This document shows positions 3,971-49,484 of a stretch of DNA of 64,000 bases, piece by piece (the stretch's first letter is position 1; each line of letters starts with the position of its first letter). The notes below the pieces were generated by a model. The model was not told where the DNA came from. It did not search any database and was given only the letters and a program-made list of their open reading frames with translations. The position numbers and the translations under genes are program-made. Source of the DNA: Cenarchaeum sp. (GTDB lineage Archaea > Thermoproteota > Nitrososphaeria > Nitrososphaerales > Nitrosopumilaceae); assembly GCA_965242695.1 (NCBI GenBank), contig CBDESU010000001.1, positions 1,056,001-1,120,000 on the forward strand, written 5' to 3'.

Positions 3971-4077
3971 CCACCGCCGCCGCCTGGGATTCGGCCCCCT
4001 TTTTCCTCAAGGTGCTGACCGCGCTGCGAGTGGACGGCAGCCCACCGCCGCCGCCTGGGATTCGGCCCCCTTTTTCC
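3971..4077 (+). repeat. Putative ectopic CRISPR spacer integration 1: 36-bp duplication with 35-bp insert
   Basis: CCACCGCCGCCGCCTGGGATTCGGCCCCCTTTTTCC at 3971 and 4042 (identity runs to 38 bp); period 71; frameshifts the IS66 transposase; shares CGGCCCC at positions 22-28 with the minus-strand CRISPR repeat. Confidence 0.75.
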
Positions 4078-12000: not shown

Positions 12001-12031
12001 TTCTAGCGACAATAGACTTCGCACCCGCCGG

Positions 12032-13078: not shown

Positions 13079-13079
13079 G

Positions 13080-28600: not shown

Positions 28601-31600
28601 TGCGGAAGGTGGATAGAGAGAGAGACACTGTGGGTCCGCACCAAGCTTCAATGGGGCCGCAACTTGACAGTTGCGGAAGGCGATCCGTTTGGCATGAGTA
28701 GCGGCCCCACTTTTGGTAGCTTCAATGGGGCCGCAACTTGACAGTTGCGGAAGGAGGGGGCGCATCGGCCAAGCGCCGGCCCCGCCCGCGCTTCAATGGG
28801 GCCGCAACTTGACAGTTGCGGAAGGCTCCGCCGTCAGGCCCGGGGTCACGATCGTGCTGCCGGCTTCAATGGGGCCGCAACTTGACAGTTGCGGAAGGTG
28901 ACGGCCCGCTTGCAGGCGTTCCGAGTCGCTATCGCTTCAATGGGGCCGCAACTTGACAGTTGCGGAAGGCGGAGCGGGCGGGACGAGGCAAGCGAGGGGG
29001 ACGAGCTTCAATGGGGCCGCAACTTGACAGTTGCGGAAGGTTGGCGAGCGTGTTTGCCCCGTTTCCTATCCACGTGCTTCAATGGGGCCGCAACTTGACA
29101 GTTGCGGAAGGCCGCATCGTTCGCATTGTCGAAGAAGCAGAATCCGTGCTTCAATGGGGCCGCAACTTGACAGTTGCGGAAGGTTCAATGTCCCCCAACT
29201 CCGCGAGCCTATCATCCCAGCTTCAATGGGGCCGCAACTTGACAGTTGCGGAAGGCAGGCGCGCGACGATCGCGCCCTCTGGCTTGGCCTGGCTTCAATG
29301 GGGCCGCAACTTGACAGTTGCGGAAGGCGACCCGCACCACCTCATCCGGGGAGGCCAGCGTGGCTTCAATGGGGCCGCAACTTGACAGTTGCGGAAGGGC
29401 CTCGCGAGGGTTGTCTGCATCGACGTGGAGCGTGCTTCAATGGGGCCGCAACTTGACAGTTGCGGAAGGCGTGTACGATTCGATCGTCGGAAAGAACGCG
29501 GACGCTTCAATGGGGCCGCAACTTGACAGTTGCGGAAGGGGACGTCGCCCTTCGGCGAGCCGAACCAGCCCATAGCGCTTCAATGGGGCCGCAACTTGAC
29601 AGTTGCGGAAGGCGCGTAGAGATTTCCAATCTCATACAGCGCCTGCTGGAGCTTCAATGGGGCCGCAACTTGACAGTTGCGGAAGGAAGATGTATACCGG
29701 CGGACACGTGCAGATATGTTCGCTTCAATGGGGCCGCAACTTGACAGTTGCGGAAGGGTACGCCCGCGAGCGCGACGCGGCCGCCGCCCTAAAGCTTCAA
29801 TGGGGCCGCAACTTGACAGTTGCGGAAGGCACTACGACCGCGCCCTTCGAAACCAAGAGGCCGCGCTGCTTCAATGGGGCCGCAACTTGACAGTTGCGGA
29901 AGGCGAGTCTCTGGCGAATACCGGTGAAACGACGTCTGGCTTCAATGGGGCCGCAACTTGACAGTTGCGGAAGGAGCAACCCTCCCGGGTACGCGGCCGT
30001 CATTGTCCCGCTTCAATGGGGCCGCAACTTGACAGTTGCGGAAGGCCGTATAGACCAGGCCACCGCCGCCAGCATTATCCCGCTTCAATGGGGCCGCAAC
30101 TTGACAGTTGCGGAAGGCCGTCATGATCGCTGTATGGAGTGCAACTGCCCCAGCTTCAATGGGGCCGCAACTTGACAGTTGCGGAAGGACCGATCCGATC
30201 ACGGCCGCCGCCCCCACGGCGGCGCTTCAATGGGGCCGCAACTTGACAGTTGCGGAAGGCTCCACGTGCGCGAGGCTCGAACGGATCGCCGCAGAGCTTC
30301 AATGGGGCCGCAACTTGACAGTTGCGGAAGGCGGCGGGGGCCTGCTGCCCGAGGCGAGTGTACCGGCGCTTCAATGGGGCCGCAACTTGACAGTTGCGGA
30401 AGGCGCATGGTCGCCGGCGTGTGCATGATCTCGGGGCCCCTGCTTCAATGGGGCCGCAACTTGACAGTTGCGGAAGGCGTGCGCCGTGTGCGACGCCCCC
30501 GTCCTCTACAAGCTTCAATGGGGCCGCAACTTGACAGTTGCGGAAGGCCCGTCCTCGACGCAGATCGCCTCGATCAAACTCGTGCTTCAATGGGGCCGCA
30601 ACTTGACAGTTGCGGAAGGTTCAACATAGCGGGTGCTGCCGCCCTTCACCGCCTTGCTTCAATGGGGCCGCAACTTGACAGTTGCGGAAGGGGCCGACCT
30701 GGCCGCCCTGCTCCGCGGCACCGCAGAGCTTCAATGGGGCCGCAACTTGACAGTTGCGGAAGGGGGCCGGCGCAGAGTACAGCGCCGCCCAATGCAAGCT
30801 TCAATGGGGCCGCAACTTGACAGTTGCGGAAGGGGCTTGCGCCGCCCCTCGCCATAGCAGATTGGGCAGCTTCAATGGGGCCGCAACTTGACAGTTGCGG
30901 AAGGCACGCGACTGCCGTCGCCAACGTCCTCGAGTACATGCTTCAATGGGGCCGCAACTTGACAGTTGCGGAAGGGCAGGGCCCATTCAGGGTCAAAGCC
31001 ACTGTCGTCGCTTCAATGGGGCCGCAACTTGACAGTTGCGGAAGGTGGTTATCGGCCCGCCGGCGGCGTGTACGGGCTGTCGCTTCAATGGGGCCGCAAC
31101 TTGACAGTTGCGGAAGGAATTGCCTGCGCCGTCTTAACCCGCCGGCCATTGGGCTTCAATGGGGCCGCAACTTGACAGTTGCGGAAGGAGACACAGCAGG
31201 CGATCGATGCCTGCGAGCAGGCATGCTTCAATGGGGCCGCAACTTGACAGTTGCGGAAGGTCTTGAACCGCTCGCTTACTTCAACGGCGCGGCCGGCTTC
31301 AATGGGGCCGCAACTTGACAGTTGCGGAAGGATCCCACTCGGGCCGCTCCTGCGCCCATATGGGCCGCTTCAATGGGGCCGCAACTTGACAGTTGCGGAA
31401 GGCAGTGCAACGTGGGTAATACCAGGCAGAAGGGGGCAGCTTCAATGGGGCCGCAACTTGACAGTTGCGGAAGGCTGGGGCCGAGCATGGGCCCGAGGTA
31501 CTTGACGAGCTTCAATGGGGCCGCAACTTGACAGTTGCGGAAGGAACAAGTACGCTGTTGTCGTCGGGAACCATTGTCAAAGCTTCAATGGGGCCGCAAC

Positions 31601-34600
31601 TTGACAGTTGCGGAAGGGTCAATCCCCCGCCTTCCCCAGGTGCCTCAATGCCAGCTTCAATGGGGCCGCAACTTGACAGTTGCGGAAGGGCCGCCCCCTT
31701 AGCTCTGGTCCCGCGGGATGCGCCAGCTTCAATGGGGCCGCAACTTGACAGTTGCGGAAGGTCATCGATCTGCTTTATTTCGGGGTTGTTTTTCTTGCTT
31801 CAATGGGGCCGCAACTTGACAGTTGCGGAAGGGCTCGTTGGCCGCCACGGTGAGCTCGGCTTCTTGTCTGCTTCAATGGGGCCGCAACTTGACAGTTGCG
31901 GAAGGCGCGGGCAGCTGGCCCCAGAGCCACGCCTGACGCTGCTTCAATGGGGCCGCAACTTGACAGTTGCGGAAGGCCGCCGTCCGCGTCGAGGTCGCGC
32001 GCCCCGGGGCCGCTTCAATGGGGCCGCAACTTGACAGTTGCGGAAGGATGTCCGGAAAACCGACCAAGCCCTGGCCGCCTTAGCTTCAATGGGGCCGCAA
32101 CTTGACAGTTGCGGAAGGAACAAGAACGGGGAACTGGAGCCGGAGACGATGCTGGCTTCAATGGGGCCGCAACTTGACAGTTGCGGAAGGATTGTCGCTT
32201 CCACGCTCCACGCAAAAAGGCCCGGGCTTCAATGGGGCCGCAACTTGACAGTTGCGGAAGGTGGAAGAGTTGGGTACCCAGTTCTTCGACTACATGGAGC
32301 TTCAATGGGGCCGCAACTTGACAGTTGCGGAAGGTACCGCCATTCAGCACGGCCCCGAAGTATTTGAATATGCTTCAATGGGGCCGCAACTTGACAGTTG
32401 CGGAAGGTCCGTGTTGAGGGCGGTGCGCAGGTCGGCGGGCGGCTTCAATGGGGCCGCAACTTGACAGTTGCGGAAGGTTGGCACTTTTCTCGAAATCCAA
32501 GATGACGCCTCGCGGGGCTTCAATGGGGCCGCAACTTGACAGTTGCGGAAGGCCTGCGTGCGGGCCGTAGTGTCAAAGCGGGCCTCGGCTTCAATGGGGC
32601 CGCAACTTGACAGTTGCGGAAGGGGTCAACGCCCTGGTGGCATCGCTTCAGCAGGGCCAGGCTTCAATGGGGCCGCAACTTGACAGTTGCGGAAGGGATC
32701 GACGGCCTAGAGGGCGCGGCGCGGCGCCTCAGCTTCAATGGGGCCGCAACTTGACAGTTGCGGAAGGCAGGCGGAGTGCCTGCCGCCTGTCCCCATCTTC
32801 AGATTGCTTCAATGGGGCCGCAACTTGACAGTTGCGGAAGGCGCGTACCGCGCTATCTACGGGCGCCCGCACCCTGGCGCTTCAATGGGGCCGCAACTTG
32901 ACAGTTGCGGAAGGCAGTAGCGGCCACTCGTGCGATCCCCTGTCGGACGCTTCAATGGGGCCGCAACTTGACAGTTGCGGAAGGTCGGAATCATGGCGGC
33001 CACAAACGGCAAGCTCGCAGCTTCAATGGGGCCGCAACTTGACAGTTGCGGAAGGGAGTAGCGGACGGTAGAGGCGTAGCAGTTGATCACGCTTCAATGG
33101 GGCCGCAACTTGACAGTTGCGGAAGGAGTATGAGCTCGTCACGCAGGCGTATCATCGAGTCGTGCTTCAATGGGGCCGCAACTTGACAGTTGCGGAAGGC
33201 GGACCGTCTCACGGGGCGCCGCTGGCTTACTGTCTTGCTTCAATGGGGCCGCAACTTGACAGTTGCGGAAGGCAAAGAGAGCTGCGCGCAAAGGTGCAAA
33301 GCCATACGCTTCAATGGGGCCGCAACTTGACAGTTGCGGAAGGCGGCTACAAAGCCGTCCAAAAAGCCGGCAAGTATCGGCTTCAATGGGGCCGCAACTT
33401 GACAGTTGCGGAAGGCCATGACGATACGGCGGATGTGGTTTGACCGCGGGCTTCAATGGGGCCGCAACTTGACAGTTGCGGAAGGCGGCGGCGGTGCGAT
33501 GCGCACGGCCCGGCTCGCCGCTTCAATGGGGCCGCAACTTGACAGTTGCGGAAGGTGCTCGCGCTAGTCTCTACCGTGGGGATCGGCGCAAGCTTCAATG
33601 GGGCCGCAACTTGACAGTTGCGGAAGGCGGCGGCAGTCGTCATGGCTGCGGCACCACCATGGTGCTTCAATGGGGCCGCAACTTGACAGTTGCGGAAGGC
33701 ATGGGACAATGCAAGCCAAGTAGCGGACGAGTGGCTTCAATGGGGCCGCAACTTGACAGTTGCGGAAGGCGGCCCTGCGCCGGGCTACCAGGCCGACGCG
33801 GTCCGGCTTCAATGGGGCCGCAACTTGACAGTTGCGGAAGGAGCCTAGCGATCACTGCGCGCGTGTCGGCAAGCGCGTGCTTCAATGGGGCCGCAACTTG
33901 ACAGTTGCGGAAGGCCGATCCCGCGAGCAGGCCGCCCGCGAGGCCGCAGAGCTTCAATGGGGCCGCAACTTGACAGTTGCGGAAGGGGCGGGCAGCCACT
34001 CGCCGGCGTGCCGCCACCTCGCTTCAATGGGGCCGCAACTTGACAGTTGCGGAAGGCTCAACGAGACCAAGTTCGAGGCGTTCGCCGCCTCTGCTTCAAT
34101 GGGGCCGCAACTTGACAGTTGCGGAAGGCTCGGCGAGGCCAACGCCCCGGGCAACCGCCTCGCGCCGCTTCAATGGGGCCGCAACTTGACAGTTGCGGAA
34201 GGACGGGGCAGGGTACGGCGTCCGGCGCCCAGGACCAGCAGCTTCAATGGGGCCGCAACTTGACAGTTGCGGAAGGCGTCCGCGCCCTGGTCGGGCTTGA
34301 TCTAATACGGGCTTCAATGGGGCCGCAACTTGACAGTTGCGGAAGGGCCTTGATGTATGCTCGCGCGTCCTACCGATTGTGGCTTCAATGGGGCCGCAAC
34401 TTGACAGTTGCGGAAGGCCCGGGCGGGACATGTCCCCAAAGCAGATCGCGCAGGCTTCAATGGGGCCGCAACTTGACAGTTGCGGAAGGGGCAACGTGCA
34501 GGAGCGCCTGCTCGAGATGACCCCGCTTCAATGGGGCCGCAACTTGACAGTTGCGGAAGGTGGCGGCGGGCCAACGTGTACGTCCGTCCCTCTGCCTTGC

Positions 34601-37600
34601 TTCAATGGGGCCGCAACTTGACAGTTGCGGAAGGCGCCACAATCCCTGGTATGCAAGCAGGTGGTTAGCCAGGCTTCAATGGGGCCGCAACTTGACAGTT
34701 GCGGAAGGCTCCGCTCGGTTAGCGGTCCTACGCGCCTATCACTGCTTCAATGGGGCCGCAACTTGACAGTTACGGAAGGGGCAAAGCGCTCCGGCCGCTC
34801 GGCGCGGAGTTTGCGGCTTCAATGGGGCCGCAACTTGACAGTTGCGGAAGGGCTTGTCCAAGGACTCGGCGCAATTCTGACAAAGCGCTTCAATGGGGCC
34901 GCAACTTGACAGTTGCGGAAGGCGTAACCCCGACACCGCTTCCCGAAGAGGACGAGCGGCTTCAATGGGGCCGCAACTTGACAGTTGCGGAAGGTCGGGA
35001 CCACGTCCCCAAGTTGGTAGGGGAGGACAGCTTCAATGGGGCCGCAACTTGACAGTTGCGGAAGGTGACGGGCGCAAACAAGACCATGAAGATGTTCGTA
35101 GCTTCAATGGGGCCGCAACTTGACAGTTGCGGAAGGGGGCTTGCCTCCTTTACGAAGACTGACGTGCAGGCCATGCTTCAATGGGGCCGCAACTTGACAG
35201 TTGCGGAAGGCAAACAACATGCTTGAATACCGTGCGTTGATTACTGGCTTCAATGGGGCCGCAACTTGACAGTTGCGGAAGGTGTGGGGCTTACTGCCCT
35301 GATATTCAAGGATTAAGCTTCAATGGGGCCGCAACTTGACAGTTGCGGAAGGTTTGGGAGGGCATTAGGCTCATCGACCCGAATATCGGCTTCAATGGGG
35401 CCGCAACTTGACAGTTGCGGAAGGCGCCCTAGATGTGTGGAATCTGACAGGCAACCCCAGCTTCAATGGGGCCGCAACTTGACAGTTGCGGAAGGAGGAC
35501 GGACAGGGGAGCACAGAATGACCGAGCGCTAGCTTCAATGGGGCCGCAACTTGACAGTTGCGGAAGGCGGACCGCTCAACGAGTTCGCACAGCGCTGCTC
35601 GGCGCTTCAATGGGGCCGCAACTTGACAGTTGCGGAAGGGTCGATTGGTGCAACGAACGCATCGCCGACGACAGCTTCAATGGGGCCGCAACTTGACAGT
35701 TGCGGAAGGCGTACGATCCAGACTTTGCCGTCATGGACGCCGGCGGGCTTCAATGGGGCCGCAACTTGACAGTTGCGGAAGGCGGTTGACAGGGGAGTTG
35801 GCCACCGCCCTGCGCGGGGCTTCAATGGGGCCGCAACTTGACAGTTGCGGAAGGCGCAAAGAGATTTTGCCGGTCGGCGGCGTGCAGGCTGGGCTTCAAT
35901 GGGGCCGCAACTTGACAGTTGCGGAAGGACTGGGAATGGGTAAAGACGGTAGCCACGCTTCTAGCTTCAATGGGGCCGCAACTTGACAGTTGCGGAAGGA
36001 TCATGGCCGTCCACGGGGTTGCCTTTTTTTCAACCGCGCTTCAATGGGGCCGCAACTTGACAGTTGCGGAAGGCATTATGAGATCGGTAGTGTGTTTTTG
36101 ATCCTGCTCGCTTCAATGGGGCCGCAACTTGACAGTTGCGGAAGGCCCTGAAGCGCCTTCAGCGCCCCCGCCCCACGCCTGCTTCAATGGGGCCGCAACT
36201 TGACAGTTGCGGAAGGTGAGATCGGCGGCCCCGTCGGGGCCTAGCGCAGGTGCTTCAATGGGGCCGCAACTTGACAGTTGCGGAAGGCGGTGGGGGCTGT
36301 GCCTGCCGACGCGATTGAGGATGGCTTCAATGGGGCCGCAACTTGACAGTTGCGGAAGGACGATCCTGGGGGAACGCCGGAGCAGGGCTGCTTCAAGCTT
36401 CAATGGGGCCGCAACTTGACAGTTGCGGAAGGGCCGACGGGCTTGGCCCGCAGGGCGAAGATTGGCTTGCTTCAATGGGGCCGCAACTTGACAGTTGCGG
36501 AAGGTACGTCAGGCGGCATCCCGACCTGTGCTGCATGATGCTTCAATGGGGCCGCAACTTGACAGTTGCGGAAGGAGCGCTGCATGAGCCTGCCGCTTAA
36601 CGGGGGGGGCTTCAATGGGGCCGCAACTTGACAGTTGCGGAAGGTATGCGGCAAGCCCGCCCAGCACTCGGACGCGCCTTGCTTCAATGGGGCCGCAACT
36701 TGACAGTTGCGGAAGGGGTCGGGTTCGCACTGTGGCGACTCGGTAAGGCCTATGCTTCAATGGGGCCGCAACTTGACAGTTGCGGAAGGATGTACAATGC
36801 GGCCGTACGCGCGCAAAAATCGCAGGGCTTCAATGGGGCCGCAACTTGACAGTTGCGGAAGGGGGCGGCCCGCCTGCGCCTGGCGTCCGACGCCCGCCGG
36901 CTTCAATGGGGCCGCAACTTGACAGTTGCGGAAGGACGATTCCGACTTCAATGCCGTCGGCCAATCCGCGGGCTTCAATGGGGCCGCAACTTGACAGTTG
37001 CGGAAGGATTTGCCCGAATATCTGACGGGCCTTGGCCAACCCGCTTCAATGGGGCCGCAACTTGACAGTTGCGGAAGGCGGCACGCCGTTCAACTGCAAG
37101 TATTACCGCGTCGGGCTTCAATGGGGCCGCAACTTGACAGTTGCGGAAGGCAGATGACAAGCCGTCAAAGGGGGCGCGCCCGACATGCTTCAATGGGGCC
37201 GCAACTTGACAGTTGCGGAAGGGCGGCGCCCCAGCGCAGGGCCGCGCTAGGCCTGCCCGCTTCAATGGGGCCGCAACTTGACAGTTGCGGAAGGGGCTCA
37301 ACGCCAGGGCCGTGTAAACGTCGCCGTGCCTGCTTCAATGGGGCCGCAACTTGACAGTTGCGGAAGGGGGGGGGCGCTCGCGCTGGGGCGGCCCGCACGG
37401 GCTTTGCTTCAATGGGGCCGCAACTTGACAGTTGCGGAAGGGCGTGGGCGCCATGCAGGATGAGGGCGGTGCGTTTGGCTTCAATGGGGCCGCAACTTGA
37501 CAGTTGCGGAAGGACAGGGGCGCCCGCCGCCGGCGGCATGGCCTGCTGGGCTTCAATGGGGCCGCAACTTGACAGTTGCGGAAGGGGCGATCCGTGGAAG

Positions 37601-40404
37601 TGGGACCGTCTGCGCAAGGAGCTTCAATGGGGCCGCAACTTGACAGTTGCGGAAGGGACGCGAGGCGGGTGCGCGCGGTCTCTACGGCGGTAGCTTCAAT
37701 GGGGCCGCAACTTGACAGTTGCGGAAGGGGGACGTGCCACGTGCAGTTCGATCACCCACCCGGGGCGCTTCAATGGGGCCGCAACTTGACAGTTGCGGAA
37801 GGCACCAGGCGTGGTCGTTCGCCGACGGCGTCACTGCGCTTCAATGGGGCCGCAACTTGACAGTTGCGGAAGGAGTCCGCGACGCCATGACGCCGCTCGA
37901 AAAGGCCGCGCTTCAATGGGGCCGCAACTTGACAGTTGCGGAAGGCGCCGGCATTCCGCGACGCGCGCGGGGCATGTCGGGCGCTTCAATGGGGCCGCAA
38001 CTTGACAGTTGCGGAAGGATAGCTCTCGGTCACGTCCCGCAGCAGCATCCGGATGCTTCAATGGGGCCGCAACTTGACAGTTGCGGAAGGCATCAAGCGA
38101 ACAAAGAAGGCGGGCAGGGCCCTAGGGCTTCAATGGGGCCGCAACTTGACAGTTGCGGAAGGCTCGGCCCTGGTCTACGGGCCGGCGGCCCAGAGCGGGC
38201 TTCAATGGGGCCGCAACTTGACAGTTGCGGAAGGATGCCTGATGCGCCAGGATGCGGACGGCGATCTCCGTGCTTCAATGGGGCCGCAACTTGACAGTTG
38301 CGGAAGGCATTGCGCCGGTAAAGCCAAAGGGCAGGCTATATACCCGCTTCAATGGGGCCGCAACTTGACAGTTGCGGAAGGGCCAATCATGCCTCTCCTA
38401 CGCGGAAGAGGTATATAAGGCTTCAATGGGGCCGCAACTTGACAGTTGCGGAAGGCGGCGTGGTGCGGGCGTACGCCCGCGCCAGGTCCTGCTTCAATGG
38501 GGCCGCAACTTGACAGTTGCGGAAGGATGCATATAGCGGGCCGCAGGCGCTAGCGCGGCGTGGCTTCAATGGGGCCGCAACTTGACAGTTGCGGAAGGGG
38601 GCGCGGCGGGCCGCCGCGCGGCAGGAAACCCCCAAGCTTCAATGGGGCCGCAACTTGACAGTTGCGGAAGGCTGGATGAAGTGGCGCGCCTGGCGCCGGC
38701 GGAGTATGCTTCAATGGGGCCGCAACTTGACAGTTGCGGAAGGCCGCGGCCTCGGCGTCGAGTGCAAGGTCGAGCTCGGGCTTCAATGGGGCCGCAACTT
38801 GACAGTTGCGGAAGGGGACATGACCGTACACGACTGCATCATTGCCGCACTGCTTCAATGGGGCCGCAACTTGACAGTTGCGGAAGGATATATGTCATCT
38901 AAGTACGTTGGCTCACAGTGGCTAGCTTCAATGGGGCCGCAACTTGACAGTTGCGGAAGGGGCACTGCTCGCAGCGCCCCCGCCCGACGGCCGCGCTTCA
39001 ATGGGGCCGCAACTTGACAGTTGCGGAAGGTGTTTGCCCTCAACTTTTCCTGATCCGATTATGAGGCTTCAATGGGGCCGCAACTTGACAGTTGCGGAAG
39101 GCGGCGACAGCCTCGACGCCCAGGACTACGGCAACCAGCTTCAATGGGGCCGCAACTTGACAGTTGCGGAAGGTTATATCCACTCGGCGCGGGGCGCCGG
39201 TAAGGATGCTTCAATGGGGCCGCAACTTGACAGTTGCGGAAGGGACGTGCGGCAGACAATGCAGGCTGCCGAGTCGATGCTTCAATGGGGCCGCAACTTG
39301 ACAGTTGCGGAAGGGGGCCACCGCCCCATAGTCCCGCACCGCCGTCCTGTGCTTCAATGGGGCCGCAACTTGACAGTTGCGGAAGGAGGCGTGGATCCGA
39401 TCGCCAAAAACAAAAGGGTTAGCTTCAATGGGGCCGCAACTTGACAGTTGCGGAAGGACGGCAAGTCGCTCATCGTCCGCCTCGGCGCCGCGCGCTTCAA
39501 TGGGGCCGCAACTTGACAGTTGCGGAAGGGTGCAGCATGTCCGAGCCTGCCGATGGGCAGGGGCCGGCTTCAATGGGGCCGCAACTTGACAGTTGCGGAA
39601 GGCGCCTTCAAGTTGGGCGTGCGGGCCGTAGCCGACGAGCTTCAATGGGGCCGCAACTTGACAGTTGCGGAAGGTCGTGTCGGACACGTTCCCGGCGCCC
39701 TCGGCGGCCGCGGCTTCAATGGGGCCGCAACTTGACAGTTGCGGAAGGGCCCGCGGACCCGAGCGACACGCACGGCCCGCCCGAAGCTTCAATGGGGCCG
39801 CAACTTGACAGTTGCGGAAGGCGCGCCGCGATCTCATCTTGGAGCGAGCCGGACGGCAGGCTTCAATGGGGCCGCAACTTGACAGTTGCGGAAGGCGGAA
39901 TCTCGCGGGGATCAGACACGCGGACGTTGACCGCTTCAATGGGGCCGCAACTTGACAGTTGCGGAAGGAGATCATTCCCAGACTGGCGAGCGTTGGAATC
40001 CGCCGAGCTTCAATGGGGCCGCAACTTGACAGTTGCGGAAGGCTCTTAAGGCACAAGGGGGGCGGGCCGCCCGTTGAGGCTTCAATGGGGCCGCAACTTG
40101 ACAGTTGCGGAAGGGTCCGGCACGGTCGCCGACGACGGCAATCTAAAGGCGCTTCAATGGGGCCGCAACTTGACAGTTGCGGAAGGCCACGCATCGACCA
40201 GGCCCGCCGACAGAACGTCCGCGCTTCAATGGGGCCGCAACTTGACAGTTGCGGAAGGCAGGCGGCCGCGCGGTTGCGGCGTGGGCCTAACCACGGCTTC
40301 AATGGGGCCGCAACTTGACAGTTGCGGAAGGAGGCGGCGGCCGAGCGCGACAAAAAGGGGGCCATTGGGCTTCAATGGGGCCGCAACTTGACAGTTGCGG
40401 AAGG
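16688..40404 (-). CRISPR. Type I-G CRISPR array, 36-bp repeat CCTTCCGCAACTGTCAAGTTGCGGCCCCATTGAAGC (minus strand), about 330 repeats with spacers of roughly 34-39 bp
   Basis: Repeat read directly; count estimated from 23.7 kb at about 72 bp per unit. Orientation from the ATTGAAGC 3' end, the leader next to cas2 and degenerate repeats at the opposite end. Rare point variants at 16972, 17329, about 22883, 27351 and about 34744. Confidence 0.99.
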
Positions 40405-40602: not shown

Positions 40603-40905
40603 TCATACGACAAACGACGGCCTCCTTCCCCCGCCCGGCTGCAGCTTCACGCCGATCGTCTCTATGCGCCCGTCCGATGCATCCCCGTACGAGGGGCCCA
40701 CATCGACGACCAGCACCCTGTCCTGGGCGTAGTCGAGCAGGTCGGCAAGGTCCTCGCGGAGCCCCGTCAGCTCTATCCGGCTCAGGTCGCAGGCGAACAC
40801 CGAGTACTGCATGCGGTCGCCGTACCCGAGCATGGTCTTATAGGTCTGCTGGCGCCGCTTTGAATCCGCCACATCGTACGCCACAATGTACCTGTTCCGC
40901 GCCAT
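40603..40905 (-). CDS. cas2: Cas2
   Basis: YIVAYDV...GYGDRMQYSVFACDL...DRVLVVDVG. Confidence 0.96.
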   Translation of the reverse strand: MARNRYIVAYDVADSKRRQQTYKTMLGYGDRMQYSVFACDLSRIELTGLREDLADLLDYAQDRVLVVDVGPSYGDASDGRIETIGVKLQPGGGRRPSFVV

Positions 40906-40921
40906 CCGCACCCACCGCGCC

Positions 40922-42703
40922 CTACCGCGTCCTGAACGAGGGGTACGACGGCACCTCGCCTAGCAGGTGCCTCGTTAAGAGCCGCGCCTGCGTGGCCATC
41001 ACACGCCGGTAGCTTGCCGCGTACCCGAGCAGCGGGTGCGATACCTGCTCGTCGAGCCGCCGGTTGTACGCCATGATTGCCCTCTTCCTGCCGGCGGCGT
41101 TCAGGCTCGTCCCGACCCCCGCCCTCACAAAGTCGGACGGCCCGATCTCGCCGCCGTTTACCATCCGCAGGCACACAGAGTCTGCCACAAGCGGGCGGAA
41201 CTCCTCCATCAAGTCCAGCGCCAGCGCCGGCTTGCCGTGCTTTGGCCTGTGCAGGTACCCCAGGTGCGGGTCGAGTCCGACGCGGCTCGCAGTCACAGCC
41301 GCATCCTTTGCAAGCATCGAGTACAGGTATGACAGCAGCGCGTTGACGGGGTCTGTCGGCGGGCGGCGCCTGCGCCCCTCCAGCCGGAACTCGGCCGCCG
41401 CCCCGGCATCCTTCACCATCGTGCTGAACTTTCCAAAGTACGTGCGCGCGGCCATGCCCTCTATGCCTAGCAGCGCCTCGTAGCTCCTCTCCTTCAGGGC
41501 CCGCTCGGCCAGCCCGTCGAGGTCAGATACGGCCGCGGCCACCCCCTCGTCCCCCGCCGGCCCGTTCCTCCGCAGCATCGTCGCGCAGTTGCGCGCCTTG
41601 CCGTGCACGATGCGCCGCGCAATGTCCATCGAGCCCCTCTGGTCCGAGTACATCCTATGCTGCGCGATGCGCAAGTGCACGTTCCGGCCGGACATCCCCG
41701 AGAGTATTCCGTAGAACCAGCCGCCGTACGACATGTAGCAGACCGGAATGTTGCGCACGGCGAGCTCGCGCAGCGCCTGCGTCGTGACCTGGACGTTGCC
41801 GAGGACGGTAACCTCCGATATGTCAAGAAGCTTGAACTCTTCCTCGGCCCCGCCCTTGCGCCTCACGACGAGCCGGTCGCCCGACTTTTTGACCGTCGCC
41901 CACTGCTCCTGCACGAACAGCGGGACGGTGTCGTTGCGCACGGGATACATCCGCCTCACCTGGTCCTTCGTCACGCTTCCGCCTCCGCCTTCGCCGTCGC
42001 CGGACAGCAGGTTGACCTCGTCGGGGAGACAAATGCCGACAAGCGAGCAGCCGGGGCACTTTGGGCTGTCGTAGAGCGGCGGCGGAAGGGTCTCAGACTC
42101 TGCATCGAGGCGGAACTCGGCGATCAGGGCGCGCGTGTGCGTCTCGAGATCCTCGTCGATCGGCACCTCGATGCGCCGCTTGGAGCCGATATAGTACACG
42201 GTGCCGCTGTCGCACTCGAAGCCGTTGGCCCGGAGCAGCAGCGCCTGCGCGCACACGTGCACCCTGTGGTCGAGGTACGTCCGCTCGGGCGTGTCGGGGA
42301 CCGTCCCGCGCTTGTGCTCGACCGGCGTCGCCTTTTTCCCCTCGGCCTCTAGCACGTCGAGCTTGCCGACGAGTCCCAGCTCCGGGTCGGAGAGCATCAT
42401 CGAGCGGGAGTGGATGGTCTCAGACTTCTTGCCAGCTCCCTTCTTGTCGCCGGCACCCCTGTCGTCAGGACCGCCGTCCCGCTCGGCCGCCTCCTCGGCC
42501 ATGCGCCTCTGGCCCGCCGGCCTGTCGACGTTGCGGTGCTTTAGCCTGCCGTCCACGGTGTATTCGTTGTGCTCGAACTCGCCCTGCACGTGCTCTAGGT
42601 ACCCAAGTCGCCGGCAGTACGAGTATTGGACGAGCATGCGGACGGGGATCAGGTCCTGCGCGGGCGCAGGTGCCTCGGCATTCTGCCCCTCCGCATCCGG
42701 CAT
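40922..42703 (-). CDS. cas4/cas1: Cas4-Cas1 fusion
   Basis: Cas4: YSYCRR, GKLDVLE, PVEHKRG, CAQALLL, KCPGCSLVGICLP. Cas1: LLGIEGMAARTYF, RRPPTDPVNALLSYLY, GYLH, LALDLMEEFRP. Start set at ATG 42703. Confidence 0.96.
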   Translation of the reverse strand: MPDAEGQNAEAPAPAQDLIPVRMLVQYSYCRRLGYLEHVQGEFEHNEYTVDGRLKHRNVDRPAGQRRMAEEAAERDGGPDDRGAGDKKGAGKKSETIHSRSMMLSDPELGLVGKLDVLEAEGKKATPVEHKRGTVPDTPERTYLDHRVHVCAQALLLRANGFECDSGTVYYIGSKRRIEVPIDEDLETHTRALIAEFRLDAESETLPPPLYDSPKCPGCSLVGICLPDEVNLLSGDGEGGGGSVTKDQVRRMYPVRNDTVPLFVQEQWATVKKSGDRLVVRRKGGAEEEFKLLDISEVTVLGNVQVTTQALRELAVRNIPVCYMSYGGWFYGILSGMSGRNVHLRIAQHRMYSDQRGSMDIARRIVHGKARNCATMLRRNGPAGDEGVAAAVSDLDGLAERALKERSYEALLGIEGMAARTYFGKFSTMVKDAGAAAEFRLEGRRRRPPTDPVNALLSYLYSMLAKDAAVTASRVGLDPHLGYLHRPKHGKPALALDLMEEFRPLVADSVCLRMVNGGEIGPSDFVRAGVGTSLNAAGRKRAIMAYNRRLDEQVSHPLLGYAASYRRVMATQARLLTRHLLGEVPSYPSFRTR

Positions 42704-42805
42704 GCCGCCCCTTCGCGCGCGCGGACCTAGTGCGCGGCGCCAAATGCGGTTGACGCCGTGGTGAGGAAAAGTTGACAGCGCGCGGCTGCCCCGCACCACA
42801 CTACA

Positions 42806-42825
42806 CCGCACCGCATAAATCCGCC
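42806..42825 (+). promoter_or_regulatory. Conserved 20-bp TPR-gene promoter motif CCGCACCGCATAAATCCGCC (also 44458, 45891, 50915, 52038, 56416, 57715; variant at 55976)
   Basis: Seven identical copies, each beginning 37-38 bp before a TPR start codon; ATAAAT sits at TATA-box distance. Confidence 0.85.
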
Positions 42826-42842
42826 CCGTACAGCCCGCCCCC

Positions 42843-43901
42843 GTGAGCGAAGACGGCAAGGAGGAGCACGAGCTCCCGCGCATACGCCTAAGCTACATCA
42901 CGGGCCCCGACGACGGCCCCGACGACGGCCCCGAAGAGGGGCGCGGCGGGGAAAGAGAGGGAGGCGGGCTGCCAGACCTCGCATCCTGCAAGGAGGCCGT
43001 CCGCCGCGACCCGGCCAGCATCAAGGCCCGCATGGAGCTCGCCACGGTCCTGCTCGCGTCCGGGCGCCTTGCCGCCGCGATCGCCGCCCTCGACGAGGCC
43101 GTGCGGATCGACCCGACCGGCGCCGAGGCGAACGCCATGCACGGCGCCGCGCTCCTGCGCGCCTCCAAGAGCGCCGAGGCCGAGCGCGCGTTCGGGGCCG
43201 CCGTCGCGGCCGACCCCGGCTACATCGCGGCCCACATCGGCCGGGCCGTCTCGCTCATGGGCCTCGGCAGGTACGCCGACGCGTCAGAGGCGTTCGCCGA
43301 GGCGGCGCGCAACGATCCCAAGAGCATCGATGCCAGGATCGGGCGCGGCGATACGCTGATCGCAACGGGCCGCCGCGACGAGGCCCTCGCGTCGTTCGAC
43401 GAGGCGCTGCGGATCGACCCCGGCAACGCGATGGTACACGCAAGGAGGGGCCGCGCGCTGCTCGAGACGGGCAGGCCCAGGAAGGCGCTCGCCGCGTTCA
43501 CGAGGGCCGCGCGGGCCGAGCCGAGGCTCGTCGATGCCCACATCGGGAGGGGCCATGCGCTGCTCGGGCTGGACAGGTACGAAAAGGGGCTTGCGGCATT
43601 CACGAGGGCGGCCCGCATTGACCCGCGCAGCCTGCCGGCCCACATGGGGCGCGCCGAGGCCCTCAGCGGCCTAGACCGCCCCGAGGGGTCGCTCGCCGCG
43701 CTAGACAGGGCCGCGGCCGTCGAACCGCAGTCGCCCACCGTCATCTCTGCGCGCGGAGGGGTGCTGTACGGCATGGGGCGGGTCGACGAGGGCATTGCGG
43801 CGCTCGAAGAGGCCGCCCGGCTCGCCCCCGACGACAAGTACCTTGCAAAGGTGATCGAAGAGCTGCGGCGGAGGAAGAAAGAGGGCGTGGCCGGGACTTG
43901 A
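42843..43901 (+). CDS. Tetratricopeptide repeat protein 1
   Basis: Tandem 34-aa TPRs (ALAAF.RA.R.DP...AH.GRG.AL..LGR). Confidence 0.92.
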   Translation: MSEDGKEEHELPRIRLSYITGPDDGPDDGPEEGRGGEREGGGLPDLASCKEAVRRDPASIKARMELATVLLASGRLAAAIAALDEAVRIDPTGAEANAMHGAALLRASKSAEAERAFGAAVAADPGYIAAHIGRAVSLMGLGRYADASEAFAEAARNDPKSIDARIGRGDTLIATGRRDEALASFDEALRIDPGNAMVHARRGRALLETGRPRKALAAFTRAARAEPRLVDAHIGRGHALLGLDRYEKGLAAFTRAARIDPRSLPAHMGRAEALSGLDRPEGSLAALDRAAAVEPQSPTVISARGGVLYGMGRVDEGIAALEEAARLAPDDKYLAKVIEELRRRKKEGVAGT

Positions 43902-45928: not shown

Positions 45929-46993
45929 ATGGGAGGCGCGGCGGAAGGCGGAATAGGCGGAAGGCGGGCCCCGCGCGTGGCCATGACGATCGGCATCGGC
46001 GTCGAGTCCGAGCGCCCGGACACGGCGGCCGAAAAAGGGGACGGACGGCCCGACCTTGCCGCCTGCGAAGAGGCCGTCCGGCGCGACCCGGGCAGCATCG
46101 GCGCCCGCATGGACCACGCGGCGGCCCTGTCGAGCGCCGGGCGGCACGGCGATGCGCTCGCCGCCGCCGACGAGGCCCTGCGCATCGACCGTACGAGCGC
46201 CGGGGCGCACGCCCTGCGCGGCGCCATCCTCTTCAACTCCTCCAGGTACGCAGACGCCGTGCCCGCGTTCGAGGCCGCCGCCGCGGCCGACCCGGGCGAG
46301 GCCGCGCACCACATGGGGCGGGCAATGGCATGCACGGGCATCGGCCGCCGCGCCGATGCGATAGAGTCGTTCGGCGAGGCGGCCCGGCTCGACCCGTCTA
46401 GCGTGGATGCGCGCAACGGGCTCGGCATCGCGCTGTCCGAGGAGGGCCGCCATTCAGAGGCCCTTGCGGCGTACAGGGAGGCGCTGCGGATCGACCCGCG
46501 CAACCCCGTGTCCAACACAAAGAGGGGCGACATACTGGCCGGCAGGGGCAGGCACAAGGGGGCGCTTGCCGCGTATACGAGGGCAGTGCGGGCCGAGCCA
46601 GGGCTGGCCGAGGCCCACGTCGGAAGGGGGCGCGCGCTTGTCGGCCTGCGCAGGCCCAAGAGGGCGCTAGCGGCGCTTGCGAGGGCGGCGCGGCTGGATC
46701 CGGACAGCGCCGCCGTCCACGCCGTCCGCTCAGAGGCGCTCCTTATCCTCGGCCGGTACGAGGGGGCGCTTGCCGCCATCGACAGGGCCGCGCGCCTGGC
46801 CCCGGGCGACGGGAGCGTGCACTTTGCGCGCGGCGTCGTGCTGCTCGGCATGGGGCGGACCGCCGAGGGCGGCAGGGAGATCAAAGAGGCCGCGCGGCTC
46901 AGCCCCGACGACAGGAACATTGCAAAGGCGCTCGGCATGCTTCGGCCCGGGGGACAGGAGCGCATAGGCCGGCGCCGGGCCTCTCCCCCCTAG
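45929..46993 (+). CDS. TPR protein 3
   Basis: TPR repeats; start placed at ATG 45929 from the motif at 45891. Confidence 0.9.
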   Translation: MGGAAEGGIGGRRAPRVAMTIGIGVESERPDTAAEKGDGRPDLAACEEAVRRDPGSIGARMDHAAALSSAGRHGDALAAADEALRIDRTSAGAHALRGAILFNSSRYADAVPAFEAAAAADPGEAAHHMGRAMACTGIGRRADAIESFGEAARLDPSSVDARNGLGIALSEEGRHSEALAAYREALRIDPRNPVSNTKRGDILAGRGRHKGALAAYTRAVRAEPGLAEAHVGRGRALVGLRRPKRALAALARAARLDPDSAAVHAVRSEALLILGRYEGALAAIDRAARLAPGDGSVHFARGVVLLGMGRTAEGGREIKEAARLSPDDRNIAKALGMLRPGGQERIGRRRASPP

Positions 46994-48245
46994 CGCGCAG
47001 CGGCGCCCCTTCGCGCCGCCGCCGCAAGCCGGGTGATCAGCTCCCTTTCCGCGGCCCGAAAGCCGCAGTCCGCGTCGCGCCAAAAGCCGCGCCAGGCCTC
47101 GTTGAGAAGGCCGGCGACCGTGTCGCCGCCCGATCCGCCACGTTCCCGCCCCCCGCCGGAGTAGCCGCGCAGTCCCGCCCGCCCGAACGTCGGGAGTATG
47201 GAGGCGGCAACCTCTTGGAGCAGCTCGGACGGGAAGGCGTGGCCGTACCCGGGCGGCGGGCTGCCGCACAGCTGCGCCATCGCGCCCCATTCCGCCCTGA
47301 TGCGATCCGCCTCTGGCTCGTGCCCGAGCAGTCGCATCCCGGCGTCGAGCAGGCGCATCCTGGCCTCGCCGGAGGGGTGGTCCTGCTCGGACAGCGGCCT
47401 GAGCTCGTAGATGTCCAGGTCAGTCTTGGTAACGAGGTGCAGGTTCGAGTGCGCGTATGCAGGCCCCGCCGCAAACAGGGCAAAGAGATCGCAGAACGCC
47501 TCCTGTATCCAGATAGACTTCCACCGTGACCACATCCACTCCACACCGTCCCGCGTCAGCGCCGGATCCGGCCCGCACTCCGTCTTGCCCACAAGCTGCG
47601 AGTACCGATCATCGACGACGCCAAGCGCGCCGTCCGTGCCATCCATGATGGGCTCGCACCCGGCTCCACGATTTACGTGGACGAACAGCAGGTGCCCCAT
47701 CTCGTGATAAAAGTCAGGCATGTGCAATAGGAACGCCGCCTCCGAGAACGGGACATGCACGGTATTGGTCGCCGGATGCGCAAAGTAGTACTCACCCGAC
47801 GTACACGATACCGCCGGACAGGGAAACGGCAGGCCCACCTCGCCGTGCATCGCGGACAGGACATCGTTGAGGAACACTGCCCGCTCCGTCTGGCAGTGCA
47901 GCGGCGGCATGCAGTACCCGTCGACCGCTGTTATTACCCTGGTGCAACCTTTCAGGATCCGCAACGCCTTGGCGCCAGCGCCACCCGTACAGCCGTTGAC
48001 AAGCAGGTCGTCAGCCCGTTCCAACATGCTCGACTGCCGCTCCAGTGTCACTATAGTCGCGGCGGCCAGGCGTTCCAGTGCCGCATGCCGCCGCCGCCGC
48101 CGGCCGGCGCCCTGTACATGGACCCGGTCGCGGCGGCCAGGCGTTCCAGCGCCGCATGCCGCTGTCTGTCCGGAATTGCGGCCCTCAGGTACTCGGCCCT
48201 GTCGATCTGCTCGCGGATGGCGCACCTCAAGTAGCGGGTGCTCAT
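46990..48245 (-). pseudogene. HExxH zinc-metallopeptidase-like protein (about 394 aa), frameshifted by a 71-bp duplication-plus-insert
   Basis: FYHEMGH, EAFCDLFA...GPAY and DHPSGEAR; ATG 48245 overlaps the upstream stop (ATGA); 1256-71 = 1185 bp = 395 codons. Confidence 0.75.
48056..48162 (+). repeat. Putative ectopic CRISPR spacer integration 2: 36-bp duplication with 35-bp insert
   Basis: GTCGCGGCGGCCAGGCGTTCCAGYGCCGCATGCCGC at 48056-48091 and 48127-48162 (one mismatch); insert CGCCGCCGCCGGCCGGCGCCCTGTACATGGACCCG. Confidence 0.8.
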
Positions 48246-48649
48246 CGTCTGTACATCTTCCCGTGCAGGGACGCGCACAAGTTGTCGAGGGCATCCGAGA
48301 CATCGCCGAGGATCGACACGTCCTTGCCTGACAGATCAACCCTGCCGCCCGTGCCTTCCTCGAGCCTAGTCTCGACGGACAGTATGCCGTCCCTTATGCC
48401 CGGCCAGCCCTCGCGGTGGCGGAGGCGCAGAAACTCGGACATCTCCTCGCCGTTGATTCCCAAGGTGAAGTAGGTCCGCCCGCGGAGGTGACGGCTCAGC
48501 GGTGCAAGTACGGCCAGTAGGCTCTCGGCCTCGTCCTGCCGCTCCACGAGGCCGCCGCGCGACTCGATCGCCTCCAAAGCGGTGAGGTACGGATCGAGTA
48601 GATTCGTAGCGCAGTGGAGGTTGGTGCCGAGCGCGCCCATGATGCTCAT
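48242..48649 (-). CDS. 135-aa hypothetical protein, copy 3, coupled to the HExxH gene
   Basis: Paralogous to 49485-49892 and 48864-49271. Confidence 0.8.
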   Translation of the reverse strand: MSIMGALGTNLHCATNLLDPYLTALEAIESRGGLVERQDEAESLLAVLAPLSRHLRGRTYFTLGINGEEMSEFLRLRHREGWPGIRDGILSVETRLEEGTGGRVDLSGKDVSILGDVSDALDNLCASLHGKMYRR

Positions 48650-48863
48650 CGTCCGCAGCCCCCCAACTCTAATGCCCCCACGCTGCGCCGGCCCGCCATT
48701 GCACGCAGGCGCACGGGGGCCATTTTTAAAGCTGTCGATATCGCACTACACGCGGCGGCCAGGCGTTCCAGCGCCGCATGCCGCTGTCTGTCCGGAATTG
48801 CGGCCATCAGGGACTCGGCCCTGTCGATCTGCTCGCGGATGATGCGCCTCAAGTAGCTGGCGC

Positions 48864-49271: not shown

Positions 49272-49484
49272 AGGCCGCCACCGCCCAACTCGAACGCATT
49301 CATGCCGCGCCTGTCCGCCATGCTGCGCAGGCGCACAGGGCTGTTTTTAAGGCCAGTGACAACGCCCTGCATGCGGCGGCTAGACGCTCGAGTGCCGCAT
49401 GCCGCTGTCTGTCCGGAATTGCGGCCCTCAGGGACTCGGCCCTGTCGATCTGCTCGCGGATGATGCGCCTCAAGTAGCGGGCGC

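What the first reader, a model, noticed from the sequence alone, without database searches (positions are those of the whole stretch)
48056..48162. Ectopic spacer 2: exact 36-bp duplication and 35-bp insert knocks out an HExxH protein
Seen: the duplication boundaries are sharp at exactly 36 bp (peptide RHAALERLAAAT appears twice, in different frames), and removing 71 bp gives a 395-codon ORF from the ATGA-coupled start. Similarity to the repeat is weak here (3' TGCCGC versus TGAAGC), which suggests a length ruler rather than sequence recognition (inference).
Basis: partly seen in the sequence, partly recalled or inferred. Interest (0 to 1): 0.8.

Follow-up and report, generated by a model that had tools for sequence, protein, structure and literature searches.

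The report
Stray CRISPR spacer breaks a gene
A 35-base piece of DNA flanked by a 36-base duplication sits inside a protease-like gene of a sponge-dwelling archaeon; it has the exact geometry of the genome's own CRISPR array and is one of about eighty such scars, so the CRISPR integrase probably often misses its target here.

Summary
48056-48091 and 48127-48162 are a sharply bounded 36-bp direct repeat (35/36 identical, not exact) around a unique 35-bp insert. Removing 71 bp restores a 395-codon ORF. A paralogue, congener homologues and 11 of 11 aligned family members carry one copy and no insert. Independent contigs from three studies span the insertion.

The neighbouring type I-G CRISPR array has 330 repeats of exactly 36 nt, with spacers of 36, 35 or 37 nt.

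The event is not isolated. A whole-genome scan found 81 isolated duplication-plus-insert events with period 68-75 against about one per period elsewhere. The duplication length steps up at 36. Ten inserts are 32-37-nt copies of distant chromosomal DNA. Two congeners with the same system show the same peak; two without it do not.

Against this: a low-GC relative with a similar system shows none, and 21 of 81 events have shorter duplications at an unchanged period.

Best reading: off-target Cas4/Cas1-Cas2 spacer integration, a known reaction, here natural, gene-breaking and unusually frequent. This scan has noted similar footprints on other DNA.

The parts
48056..48091 (.). Copy 1 of the 36-bp duplicated target (D). 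On the minus strand it is contiguous with the C-terminal 366 codons of the HExxH gene.
48092..48126 (.). 35-bp insert (spacer-length). Unique in the genome; source not found.
48127..48162 (.). Copy 2 of the 36-bp duplicated target. Contiguous with the first 40 codons of the gene. Carries C at 48150 as in the paralogue and the 622-bp units.
46990..48090 (-). Downstream part of the broken gene B (366 codons plus stop; HEMGH and EAFCDLFALFAAGPAYA motifs). Open frame, 76% identical to full-length homologues.
48127..48245 (-). First 40 codons of gene B, from the ATGA-coupled start. The frame then runs into the insert and stops at codon 65.
48242..48649 (-). Upstream gene A (135 aa, no known family), translationally coupled to B.
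16688..40404 (-). CRISPR array: 330 repeats of exactly 36 nt. Period 72 (121), 71 (77), 73 (66), 70 (30), 74 (28). Degenerate repeats at the low-coordinate end place the leader at 40405-40600.
40603..42883 (-). Adaptation module: Cas4/Cas1 fusion (40925-42883, 653 aa, open) and Cas2 (40603-40911). It is the only Cas1 match in the genome.
9868..16420 (-). Type I-G interference genes: Cas3 (13814-16420), Cas8g2-like (13080-13817; below the curated cut-off), GSU0053 Cas7 (12032-13096), GSU0054 (9868-12306).
3971..4079 (.). Second event of the same kind in the window: 38-bp exact duplication, period 71, 33-bp insert.

Best explanation
The 71 extra bases are the footprint of an off-target spacer integration by the genome's own type I-G adaptation complex (Cas4/Cas1-Cas2, encoded 5-7 kb away). 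Inferred mechanism: the two 3' ends of a 35-bp prespacer attacked the two strands of gene B at points 36 bp apart, which is the spacing the complex uses on a CRISPR repeat. Gap repair then copied the 36 bp between the two joints, leaving target-insert-target. Shown: the insertion is real; it has exactly the repeat and spacer lengths of the resident array; homologues have the empty site; and it shifts the frame (71 = 3 x 23 + 2), so the 394-aa HExxH protein ends after 64 residues. Also shown: it belongs to a set of 81 similar events in this genome, with unrelated target sequences and unrelated inserts. The duplication length steps up at 36. Where the source of an insert is known, it is a 32-37-nt copy of distant DNA. 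Inferred: site choice depends mainly on the fixed spacing of the two active sites plus a weak preference at each 5' end of the target (S-N-N-G-C), not on likeness to the repeat. Inferred: such insertions persist mostly where they do little harm (intergenic DNA, or a member of a multi-copy gene family as here). Inferred: they escape the autoimmunity that removes self-targeting spacers from the real array, because the flanking duplicates are not processed as repeats.
For: (1) Geometry. The duplication is 36 bp and the insert 35 bp. The array repeat is invariantly 36 nt in 330 of 330 copies, and spacers are 36 (121), 35 (77) or 37 (66) of 329.
(2) Empty site. The own paralogue L004, congener loci L003 and L007, and the two 622-bp units each hold one copy and no insert. 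All 11 full-length family members aligned (388-417 aa) have one RHAALERLAA segment. The restored ORF of 395 codons fits the family length.
(3) Not an artefact. Contigs with 0 gaps span both copies and the insert in runs X6 and X7. In X1 the contig runs through copy 1, the insert and copy 2 up to 48158. These are three studies.
(4) Genome-wide. Among isolated direct-repeat pairs at offsets 30-300, 78 fall at 68-75, against 0-3 at most other offsets; the other peaks are at 36, 48, 102 and 141/144. The cleaned set is 81 events with P 71:21, 72:30, 73:9, 70:8. Core length is 36:12, 37:10, 38:7, 39:5, 41:1, against 35:6 and 34:5. The 12 events with an exact 36-bp core have inserts of 35 (4), 36 (7) or 37 (1) nt.
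(5) Inserts are pasted DNA. Ten of 81 match a distant place in the genome at 94% identity or more over 32-37 nt, six of them exactly, and the match ends at the insert borders. The array has 2 of 329 such self matches. One array spacer source and two ectopic insert sources lie within 7.3 kb around the cdc6/PolD genes.
(6) Serial events. Three-copy mini-arrays occur at G000:C2:173431 and G002:C1:209985. One G002 insert starts with 17 nt of that genome's own CRISPR repeat.
(7) Congeners. In 400-kb samples, G004 (248 repeats) has 13 events and G002 (528 repeats) has 18. G003 has 0. G001 has 4, all at P=69; 3 of them are one tandem repeat. G001 and G003 have no Cas1 and no such repeat.
(8) Selection signature. 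Events lie inside genes 3.7% of the time against 37% for random sites, by a crude GC3-periodicity classifier.
(9) The reaction is known. Off-target integration was reported in E. coli in vivo and for P. furiosus Cas1-Cas2 in vitro (passages seen).
Against: No protospacer was found for this particular insert. Searched: own genome at up to 9 mismatches, array spacers, 50,697 phage records and 1.6 Mb of relatives. IMG/VR and metagenome collections were not searched.
This site's likeness to the repeat is at chance level (12 of 36). No leader-like flank was tested.
Twenty-one of 81 events have a sharply bounded duplication of only 26-32 bp yet keep the 68-73 period. A fixed 36-bp ruler with an independent spacer length does not predict this. 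About 8 of them may be unrelated background pairs.
A relative in another genus (G017, 38.6% GC) has a Cas4/Cas1 fusion and a 36-nt-repeat array with at least 38 repeats, yet shows 0 events in 360 kb.
The three positive genomes are high-GC, large-genome congeners, so the comparison with G001 and G003 is confounded by clade, GC content and genome size.
The self-derived ectopic inserts show no shared flanking motif, whereas both self-matching array spacers have TTA on one side.
An earlier scan note on another genome (e1-5079327) read a similar ~72-nt pattern as not CRISPR-like.
There is no biochemical evidence.
Confidence: 0.8

Rival explanations
1. An undescribed, clade-specific process unrelated to Cas1-Cas2 adds a nearly constant ~71-72 nt: a short copy of other DNA plus a compensating target duplication. 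The match to the CRISPR period would then be coincidence.
For: Twenty-one of 81 events have duplications of 26-32 bp at an unchanged period. G017 has a similar CRISPR system and no events. All positive genomes belong to one high-GC group. An earlier scan note, e1-5079327, reached this reading on another genome (unchecked).
Against: The duplication length has a sharp step at exactly 36, the repeat length. The 12 exact-36 events have inserts of 35-37 nt, the three commonest spacer lengths. Copied pieces of known source are 32-37 nt even where the duplication is short. Inserts are no more hairpin-prone than random 35-mers or array spacers (mean MFE -9.2, -9.4 and -9.0). No enzyme is known that makes 36-bp staggered joints other than a CRISPR integrase with a 36-nt repeat (general knowledge).
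Confidence: 0.12
2. Local replication slippage, template switching or unequal recombination tied to the adjacent 622-bp tandem repeats produced the duplication and filler.
For: The 36-mer lies near the end of the segment repeated in the 622-bp units. The region is recombinogenic: three tandem units, one with a truncated gene A.
Against: Homology between the units and gene B runs about 20 nt beyond the 36-mer, so the unit junction is not at its border. The insert matches nothing in the units or elsewhere in the genome. A simple tandem duplication would copy all 71 bp, not 36 of them. Eighty other events lie at loci without such tandem repeats.
Confidence: 0.04
3. Assembly or polishing artefact, or a miniature transposon with a 36-bp target-site duplication.
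For: None beyond the general possibility. The genome is a two-contig assembly of an uncultured organism.
Against: Independent contigs of three studies carry the insertion without gaps. The insert is single-copy, and the 81 inserts are unrelated to each other, which does not fit a mobile element family.
Confidence: 0.02

Closest known systems
Non-canonical (off-target) spacer integration giving 'neo-CRISPR' loci, E. coli type I-E (Nivala, Shipman and Church 2018, Nat Microbiol). The paper is not held; I saw only what bioRxiv 10.1101/148544 and PMC6698737 say of it (passages).
   Same: A spacer-length insert lies flanked by a repeat-length duplication of non-CRISPR DNA, made by the resident Cas1-Cas2. 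Serial insertion can start a new array. As cited, circumstantial natural cases were noted in two other species.
   Different: Here the system is a natural archaeal type I-G (Cas4/Cas1 fusion) without over-expression. The event is present in the contigs of three studies and breaks a gene. The density is about 21 events per Mb (81 in 3.89 Mb). Many inserts are copies of the cell's own chromosome.
Off-target full-site integration by Pyrococcus furiosus Cas1-Cas2 in vitro (PMC6698737; passages seen)
   Same: Cas1 and Cas2 alone integrate at non-CRISPR sites. Relative spacing and a few sequence features specify the two attack points.
   Different: That work reports off-target sites sharing features with the repeat. 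Here overall likeness to the repeat is barely above random (mean best 13.8 against 12.1 of 36), and the shared feature is a short symmetric end preference. Those are in vitro plasmid targets; these are chromosomal scars.
Ectopic spacer acquisition inside CRISPR arrays of Streptococcus thermophilus and S. mutans (PMC7999890, PMC5338259, PMC8265633; search listing and abstract starts only)
   Same: A spacer is inserted away from the leader-proximal repeat.
   Different: Those events use a genuine internal repeat of the array. Here the target is unrelated coding DNA 7.7 kb from the array.
Casposon integration by casposases, which are Cas1 homologues (general knowledge; PMC7786333 seen in a search listing only)
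   Same: A Cas1-family integrase makes staggered joints and a target-site duplication.
   Different: Casposon duplications are about 14-15 bp (recalled) and flank a multi-kb element. Only one Cas1 gene, the Cas4/Cas1 fusion, was found in this genome.

Membership tests
Off-target Cas1-Cas2 spacer integration (neo-CRISPR unit) | Direct duplication of the target equal in length to the resident CRISPR repeat | tested here: met
   The duplication is 36 bp with sharp borders. The repeat is 36 nt in 330 of 330 copies.
Off-target Cas1-Cas2 spacer integration (neo-CRISPR unit) | Insert of spacer length, unrelated to the target | tested here: met
   The insert is 35 bp, and 77 of 329 array spacers are 35 nt. 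It has no likeness to its flanks or to the genome.
Off-target Cas1-Cas2 spacer integration (neo-CRISPR unit) | Intact adaptation genes in the same genome | tested here: met
   The Cas4/Cas1 fusion is an open 653-aa frame (Cas1 4.5e-87, Cas4 1.1e-14). Cas2 matches TIGR01573. Activity is inferred only from the 330-repeat array.
Off-target Cas1-Cas2 spacer integration (neo-CRISPR unit) | Empty site in related sequences | tested here: met
   The paralogue L004, G004 loci L003 and L007, and 11 of 11 aligned homologues have a single copy and no insert. These are homologues, not proven orthologues.
Off-target Cas1-Cas2 spacer integration (neo-CRISPR unit) | Insert traceable to a protospacer (foreign or self) | tested here: not met
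   Not found for this insert; viral and metagenome collections were not searched. For the set, 10 of 81 inserts match at 94% identity or more over 32-37 nt.
Off-target Cas1-Cas2 spacer integration (neo-CRISPR unit) | Target resembles the leader-repeat junction or repeat | tested here: inconclusive
   This site matches 12 of 36 positions, against about 12 for random. The set averages 13.8 against 12.1 (sd 0.37). An end preference S-N-N-G-C exists; the native ends are CCTTC and GCTTC. Leader likeness was not tested.
Off-target Cas1-Cas2 spacer integration (neo-CRISPR unit) | Integration shown to depend on Cas1-Cas2 | not testable with these tools
   This needs biochemistry or genetics. The comparative proxy is mixed: 3 congeners with the system have events and 2 without have none, but G017 has the system and no events.
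HExxH zinc metallopeptidase (gene B) | Conserved HExxH plus a downstream acidic ligand, and a recognisable peptidase fold or family | tested here: inconclusive
   Within HELGH, E, G and the second H are nearly invariant (the first H is R in P0009), as are the core residues of an EAFCDLFALFAAGPAYA block. No Pfam, NCBIfam or PADLOC hit. The AF2 model has pLDDT 78.8, and the best PDB fold match has E 0.25. The Atlas gives only weak leads to Peptidase_U49/M48 at 0.78-0.79.

The most novel reading that the evidence does not exclude
In a group of high-GC, large-genome sponge-symbiont archaea, the type I-G adaptation complex is promiscuous enough to pepper the whole chromosome with spacers (about 20-45 footprints per Mb in three genomes). 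This would leave an unfiltered fossil record of naive adaptation. That record includes PAM-less self-derived pieces, a source hot spot at the replication-origin region, and nascent two-spacer arrays built on arbitrary 36-bp 'repeats'. CRISPR adaptation would then act as an endogenous insertional mutagen and as a visible source of new arrays in nature.
Probability: 0.7. Interest if true: 0.85.

Novelty: new member of a known kind. Interest (0 to 1): 0.78.

Why it matters
Off-target spacer integration has been shown with over-expressed E. coli proteins and in vitro. According to the passages I saw, natural evidence was described as circumstantial. Here a natural, verified event breaks a gene and belongs to a set large enough for statistics. 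That set makes several open questions directly testable. First, how the integrase measures the repeat when no repeat is present. Second, which sequence features it needs (the S-N-N-G-C ends are a concrete prediction). Third, what naive adaptation samples when autoimmunity does not filter the result (15% or so self-derived inserts against 0.6% in the array). Fourth, how new arrays start. It also puts a measurable mutational cost on carrying a very active CRISPR system. My three literature searches listed no paper describing dozens of such footprints in one natural genome. That covers only the held library and those terms.

Tried and rejected
- Rfam found no family in the window.
- Earlier notes near this place or on look-alike DNA: none.
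- Empty allele in reads: none of four runs showed a joint skipping the 71 bp. In X5 the contig simply ends at 48091. All runs are contigs, which cannot show absence.
- Protospacer for the insert: no match in phage records. In relatives' DNA only low-complexity GC-rich 13-20-mers matched.
- PAM and orientation: both self-matching array spacers have TTA on the leader-distal side. The ectopic self-derived inserts share nothing comparable. Two data points are too few, so this was left open.
- The idea that the 622-bp unit junction coincides with the duplication border: rejected by alignment.
- The second cluster of insert sources at C1:1523.6-1526.9 kb is in ordinary genes (ABC ATPases, ArgRS), not a mobile element.
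- Function of genes A and B: no Pfam, NCBIfam or PADLOC hit. The PDB profile search gave only E of 0.097 or worse. Foldseek gave nothing below E 0.25. The Atlas gave only unnamed clusters.
- The Nivala 2018 paper could not be read because it is not held.
- Supplementary files of papers were not consulted.

Full report
**The object.** On the plus strand, 48056-48091 and 48127-48162 are two copies of a 36-bp sequence, separated by 35 unrelated bases. The bases outside both borders differ, so the duplication is exactly 36 bp long. The copies differ at one internal position (48079 T against 48150 C), so it is 35/36 identical, not exact. No match to this 36-mer at up to 3 mismatches appeared in 100 shuffles of the window.

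**The gene.** The element lies in a minus-strand gene that I call B. Its ATG (48245-48243) overlaps the TGA of an upstream 135-aa gene A as ATGA. The frame reads 40 codons (ending ...RHAALERLAAAT), enters the insert and stops at codon 65. The remaining 366 codons are open in another frame and begin again with RHAALERLAAAT. Deleting 71 bp in silico gives 395 codons without an internal stop.

**It is an insertion.** A paralogue 18 kb away (L004) aligns to both flanks, and its single 37-bp stretch aligns to both copies. In the multiple alignment, the paralogue, two loci of congener G004, and the two 622-bp tandem partial copies of the operon at 48751 and 49372 all have one copy and no insert.

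A search of the protein collection gave 65 homologues, mostly 388-399 aa, with no Pfam family and no name. All 11 that I aligned have a single RHAALERLAA segment. It matches both the end of the N-terminal piece and the start of the C-terminal piece.

The homology of the 622-bp units to gene B continues about 20 nt past the 36-mer. The unit junction therefore does not coincide with the duplication border.

**It is real.** Nine public runs from four studies hold the stretch; several are sponge metagenomes. Contigs spanned copy 1, the insert and copy 2 without gaps in X6 and X7. In X1 the contig reached 48158. In X5 the contig stopped at 48091. No contig skipped the 71 bp. Only contigs were available, so an empty allele at low frequency is not excluded.

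The 90% cluster representative P0001 is 98% identical to the downstream part. It is called from a start just after copy 1, which is weakly consistent with the break being present in a variant strain too.

**The CRISPR system next door.** The array at 16688-40404 has 330 repeats with 36 invariant or nearly invariant columns and variable columns on both sides. Periods are 72 (121), 71 (77), 73 (66), 70 (30) and 74 (28).
- The flanking genes are a Cas4/Cas1 fusion, Cas2, Cas3, GSU0053, GSU0054 and a Cas8g2-like protein. This is type I-G, formerly I-U.
- Degenerate repeats at 16546-16652 mark the old end, so the leader lies at 40405-40600 beside cas2.
- The finding lies 7.7 kb beyond the leader.
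- Its 36 + 35 geometry is that of a repeat plus the second commonest spacer length.

**The genome-wide pattern.** I laid the whole genome (3.89 Mb, two contigs, 67-68% GC). I listed all near-exact direct-repeat pairs at offsets 30-300 outside the array.
- Isolated pairs show a sharp peak at offsets 68-75 (6, 4, 10, 22, 26, 6, 1, 3 = 78). Other offsets have 0-3, apart from peaks at 36, 48, 102 (TPR repeats) and 141/144.
- A second caller gave 87 pairs in 68-75. Six were dropped as internal tandem or low-complexity repeats, leaving 81.
- Core lengths are 26-35 at 1-7 per bin, then 36:12, 37:10, 38:7, 39:5, 41:1. This is a step at the repeat length, followed by the tail expected from chance extension.
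- The 12 events with an exact 36-bp core have inserts of 35 (4), 36 (7) and 37 (1) nt.
- All duplicated sequences and all inserts are unrelated to one another.
- A second event lies in this window at 3971-4079.

**Inserts are pasted DNA.** Fourteen of 81 inserts match elsewhere in the genome over 29 nt or more.
- One is part of a larger segmental duplication and was set aside.
- Ten match at 94% identity or more over 32-37 nt, six of them exactly, and the match ends at the insert borders. Three match at 88-91%.
- Only 2 of 329 array spacers have such self matches.
- The source of array spacer 246 and the sources of two ectopic inserts lie within 7.3 kb around the cdc6/orc1 and PolD genes, probably the replication origin region. 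With 15 known sources in 3.89 Mb, that clustering is very unlikely by chance (my estimate).
- The finding's own insert has no match in the genome, the array, phage records or 1.6 Mb of relatives.

**Site preference.**
- Likeness of the duplicated segments to the repeat is slight. The mean best match is 13.8 of 36, against 12.1 (sd 0.37) for random segments. This site scores 12.
- At the 34 unambiguous 5' ends (17 exact-36 events in three genomes), +1 is G or C in 33, +4 is G in 27 (p about 8e-7 before correction) and +5 is C in 19.
- The native repeat ends are CCTTC and GCTTC. This site has GTCGC and GCGGC.
- By a crude GC3-periodicity classifier, events lie inside genes 3.7% of the time against 37% for random sites. 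They lie in non-coding DNA on both sides 51% of the time against 21%. This fits selection against gene-breaking insertions, of which this finding is one of the few survivors, in a multi-copy gene family.

**Relatives.**
- Of five genomes in the genus, G000, G004 (248 identical repeats) and G002 (528 repeats, a 3-mismatch variant of 36 nt) have the array and the Cas4/Cas1 fusion. G001 and G003 have neither.
- In 400-kb samples the 68-75 peak holds 13 events in G004 and 18 in G002 by the first scan. A relisting over a narrower offset range gave 21 for G002, including one 58-bp pair.
- G003 has 0. G001 has 4, all at period 69, three of which are one tandem repeat.
- G002 has a three-copy mini-array, and one of its inserts begins with 17 nt of its own CRISPR repeat.
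- G000 has a three-copy mini-array at C2:173431, with a further event abutting it.

**Results against the reading.**
- G017 belongs to another genus (38.6% GC, 4.3 Mb). It has a Cas4/Cas1 fusion and a 36-nt-repeat array with period 72-74 and at least 38 repeats. It shows no event at any offset 40-110 in 360 kb.
- Carrying such a system is therefore not sufficient. The contrast within the genus is also confounded with GC content, genome size and descent.
- Of the 46 events with a core shorter than 36, 25 reach 36 with two mismatches or fewer. The other 21 have sharply bounded duplications of 26-32 bp at an unchanged period. About 8 of those may be background.
- Where the source is known in such cases, the copied piece is still 33-37 nt, and a few unexplained bases fill the difference.
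Its hairpin feature is absent here. I keep that reading as a rival at about 0.12.
- Eight events at period 68 with 29-32-bp duplications match the geometry of a two-repeat variant array at C2:312248. This may point to a second, lost system.

**Comparison with what is known.**
- Off-target integration creating neo-CRISPR units was reported for E. coli with induced Cas1-Cas2, with circumstantial evidence in two other species. I saw this only as cited (passages), because the paper itself is not held.
- P. furiosus Cas1-Cas2 integrates in vitro at off-target sites that share features with repeats (passages).
- 'Ectopic' acquisition in streptococci occurs within arrays (listing).
- Papers on sponge Thaumarchaeota note enrichment of CRISPR genes. 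In the passages I read, they say nothing about such footprints.
- This scan has noted single or few similar footprints in other genomes.

**Verdict.** The finding is a well-supported natural case of a known reaction. Its value lies in being verified from several sides and in belonging to an unusually large set.

**Gene B.** It has a conserved HELGH and an EAFCDLFALFAAGPAYA block but no recognisable family or fold. What was lost is a putative zinc metallopeptidase of unknown role, one of several copies of the A-B operon.

**The organism.** It is an archaeon (PolD and Cdc6 genes) found in sponge metagenomes. I infer an ammonia-oxidiser-like sponge symbiont; this was not tested.

Noticed in passing
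window 3971-4079: A second event of the same kind: 38-bp exact duplication, period 71, 33-bp insert. By the crude periodicity test it lies inside a coding region.
   Followed up: partly
window 48129-49990: Three tandem 622/621-bp units, each holding about 100 bp of upstream DNA with a TTTAAAAA box, gene A and the first ~45 codons of gene B. The gene A copy of the middle unit (48936-49271) is truncated. Origin and function of this partial-operon amplification are unknown.
   Followed up: partly
G000:C2:312248-312350 (outside the window): A two-repeat mini-array with a 30-31-nt variant of the main repeat (it shares the ...GCGGCCCCATTGAAG end), period 68. Eight ectopic-like events also have period 68, several with 29-32-bp duplications. 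This may be the trace of a second, lost system.
   Followed up: partly
L099 1409-1703 (G000:C2:173409-173703); G002:C1:209985-210170: Three copies of a locus-specific ~36-bp sequence at 72/71 (G000) and 73/73 (G002) spacing, that is, two inserts in series. In G000 a further event abuts the third copy. They look like nascent arrays.
   Followed up: partly
L097 6844-14077 (G000:C2:698844-706077): The sources of one array spacer and two ectopic inserts cluster within 7.3 kb around cdc6/orc1, PolD large and small subunits and PcrB. This is a possible adaptation hot spot at the replication origin.
   Followed up: partly
G002:C1:110117-110225: The insert of this event starts with 17 nt identical to the 3' part of G002's own CRISPR repeat, followed by 20 other bases. 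It looks like a prespacer cut out of the array itself.
   Followed up: no
genus level (G000-G004): The three genomes with the I-G system and giant arrays (248-528 repeats) are 3.2-3.9 Mb and 68-71% GC. The two without it are 1.8-2.0 Mb and 51-57% GC. Detectable footprints add only about 6 kb, so they do not explain the size difference.
   Followed up: no
window 34347-34381 and 39675-39712: Two array spacers match the organism's own chromosome exactly (35/35 and 38/38). One of them matches inside a giant open frame of more than 3600 codons. Both targets have TTA on the leader-distal side.
   Followed up: partly
window 3308-3418: A perfect tandem repeat of a 13-nt unit (8.5 copies, 100% matches) in otherwise GC-rich DNA.
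   Followed up: no
window 8464-9819: An ORF with a weak DDE transposase match (below the curated cut-off), directly beside the cas interference genes.
   Followed up: no
G000 genome-wide (21 of 81 events): Events with sharply bounded duplications of only 26-32 bp keep the 68-73 period. In two cases with a known source, a spacer-length copy (33 or 37 nt) is accompanied by 4-10 bases of unknown origin. Unexplained.
   Followed up: partly
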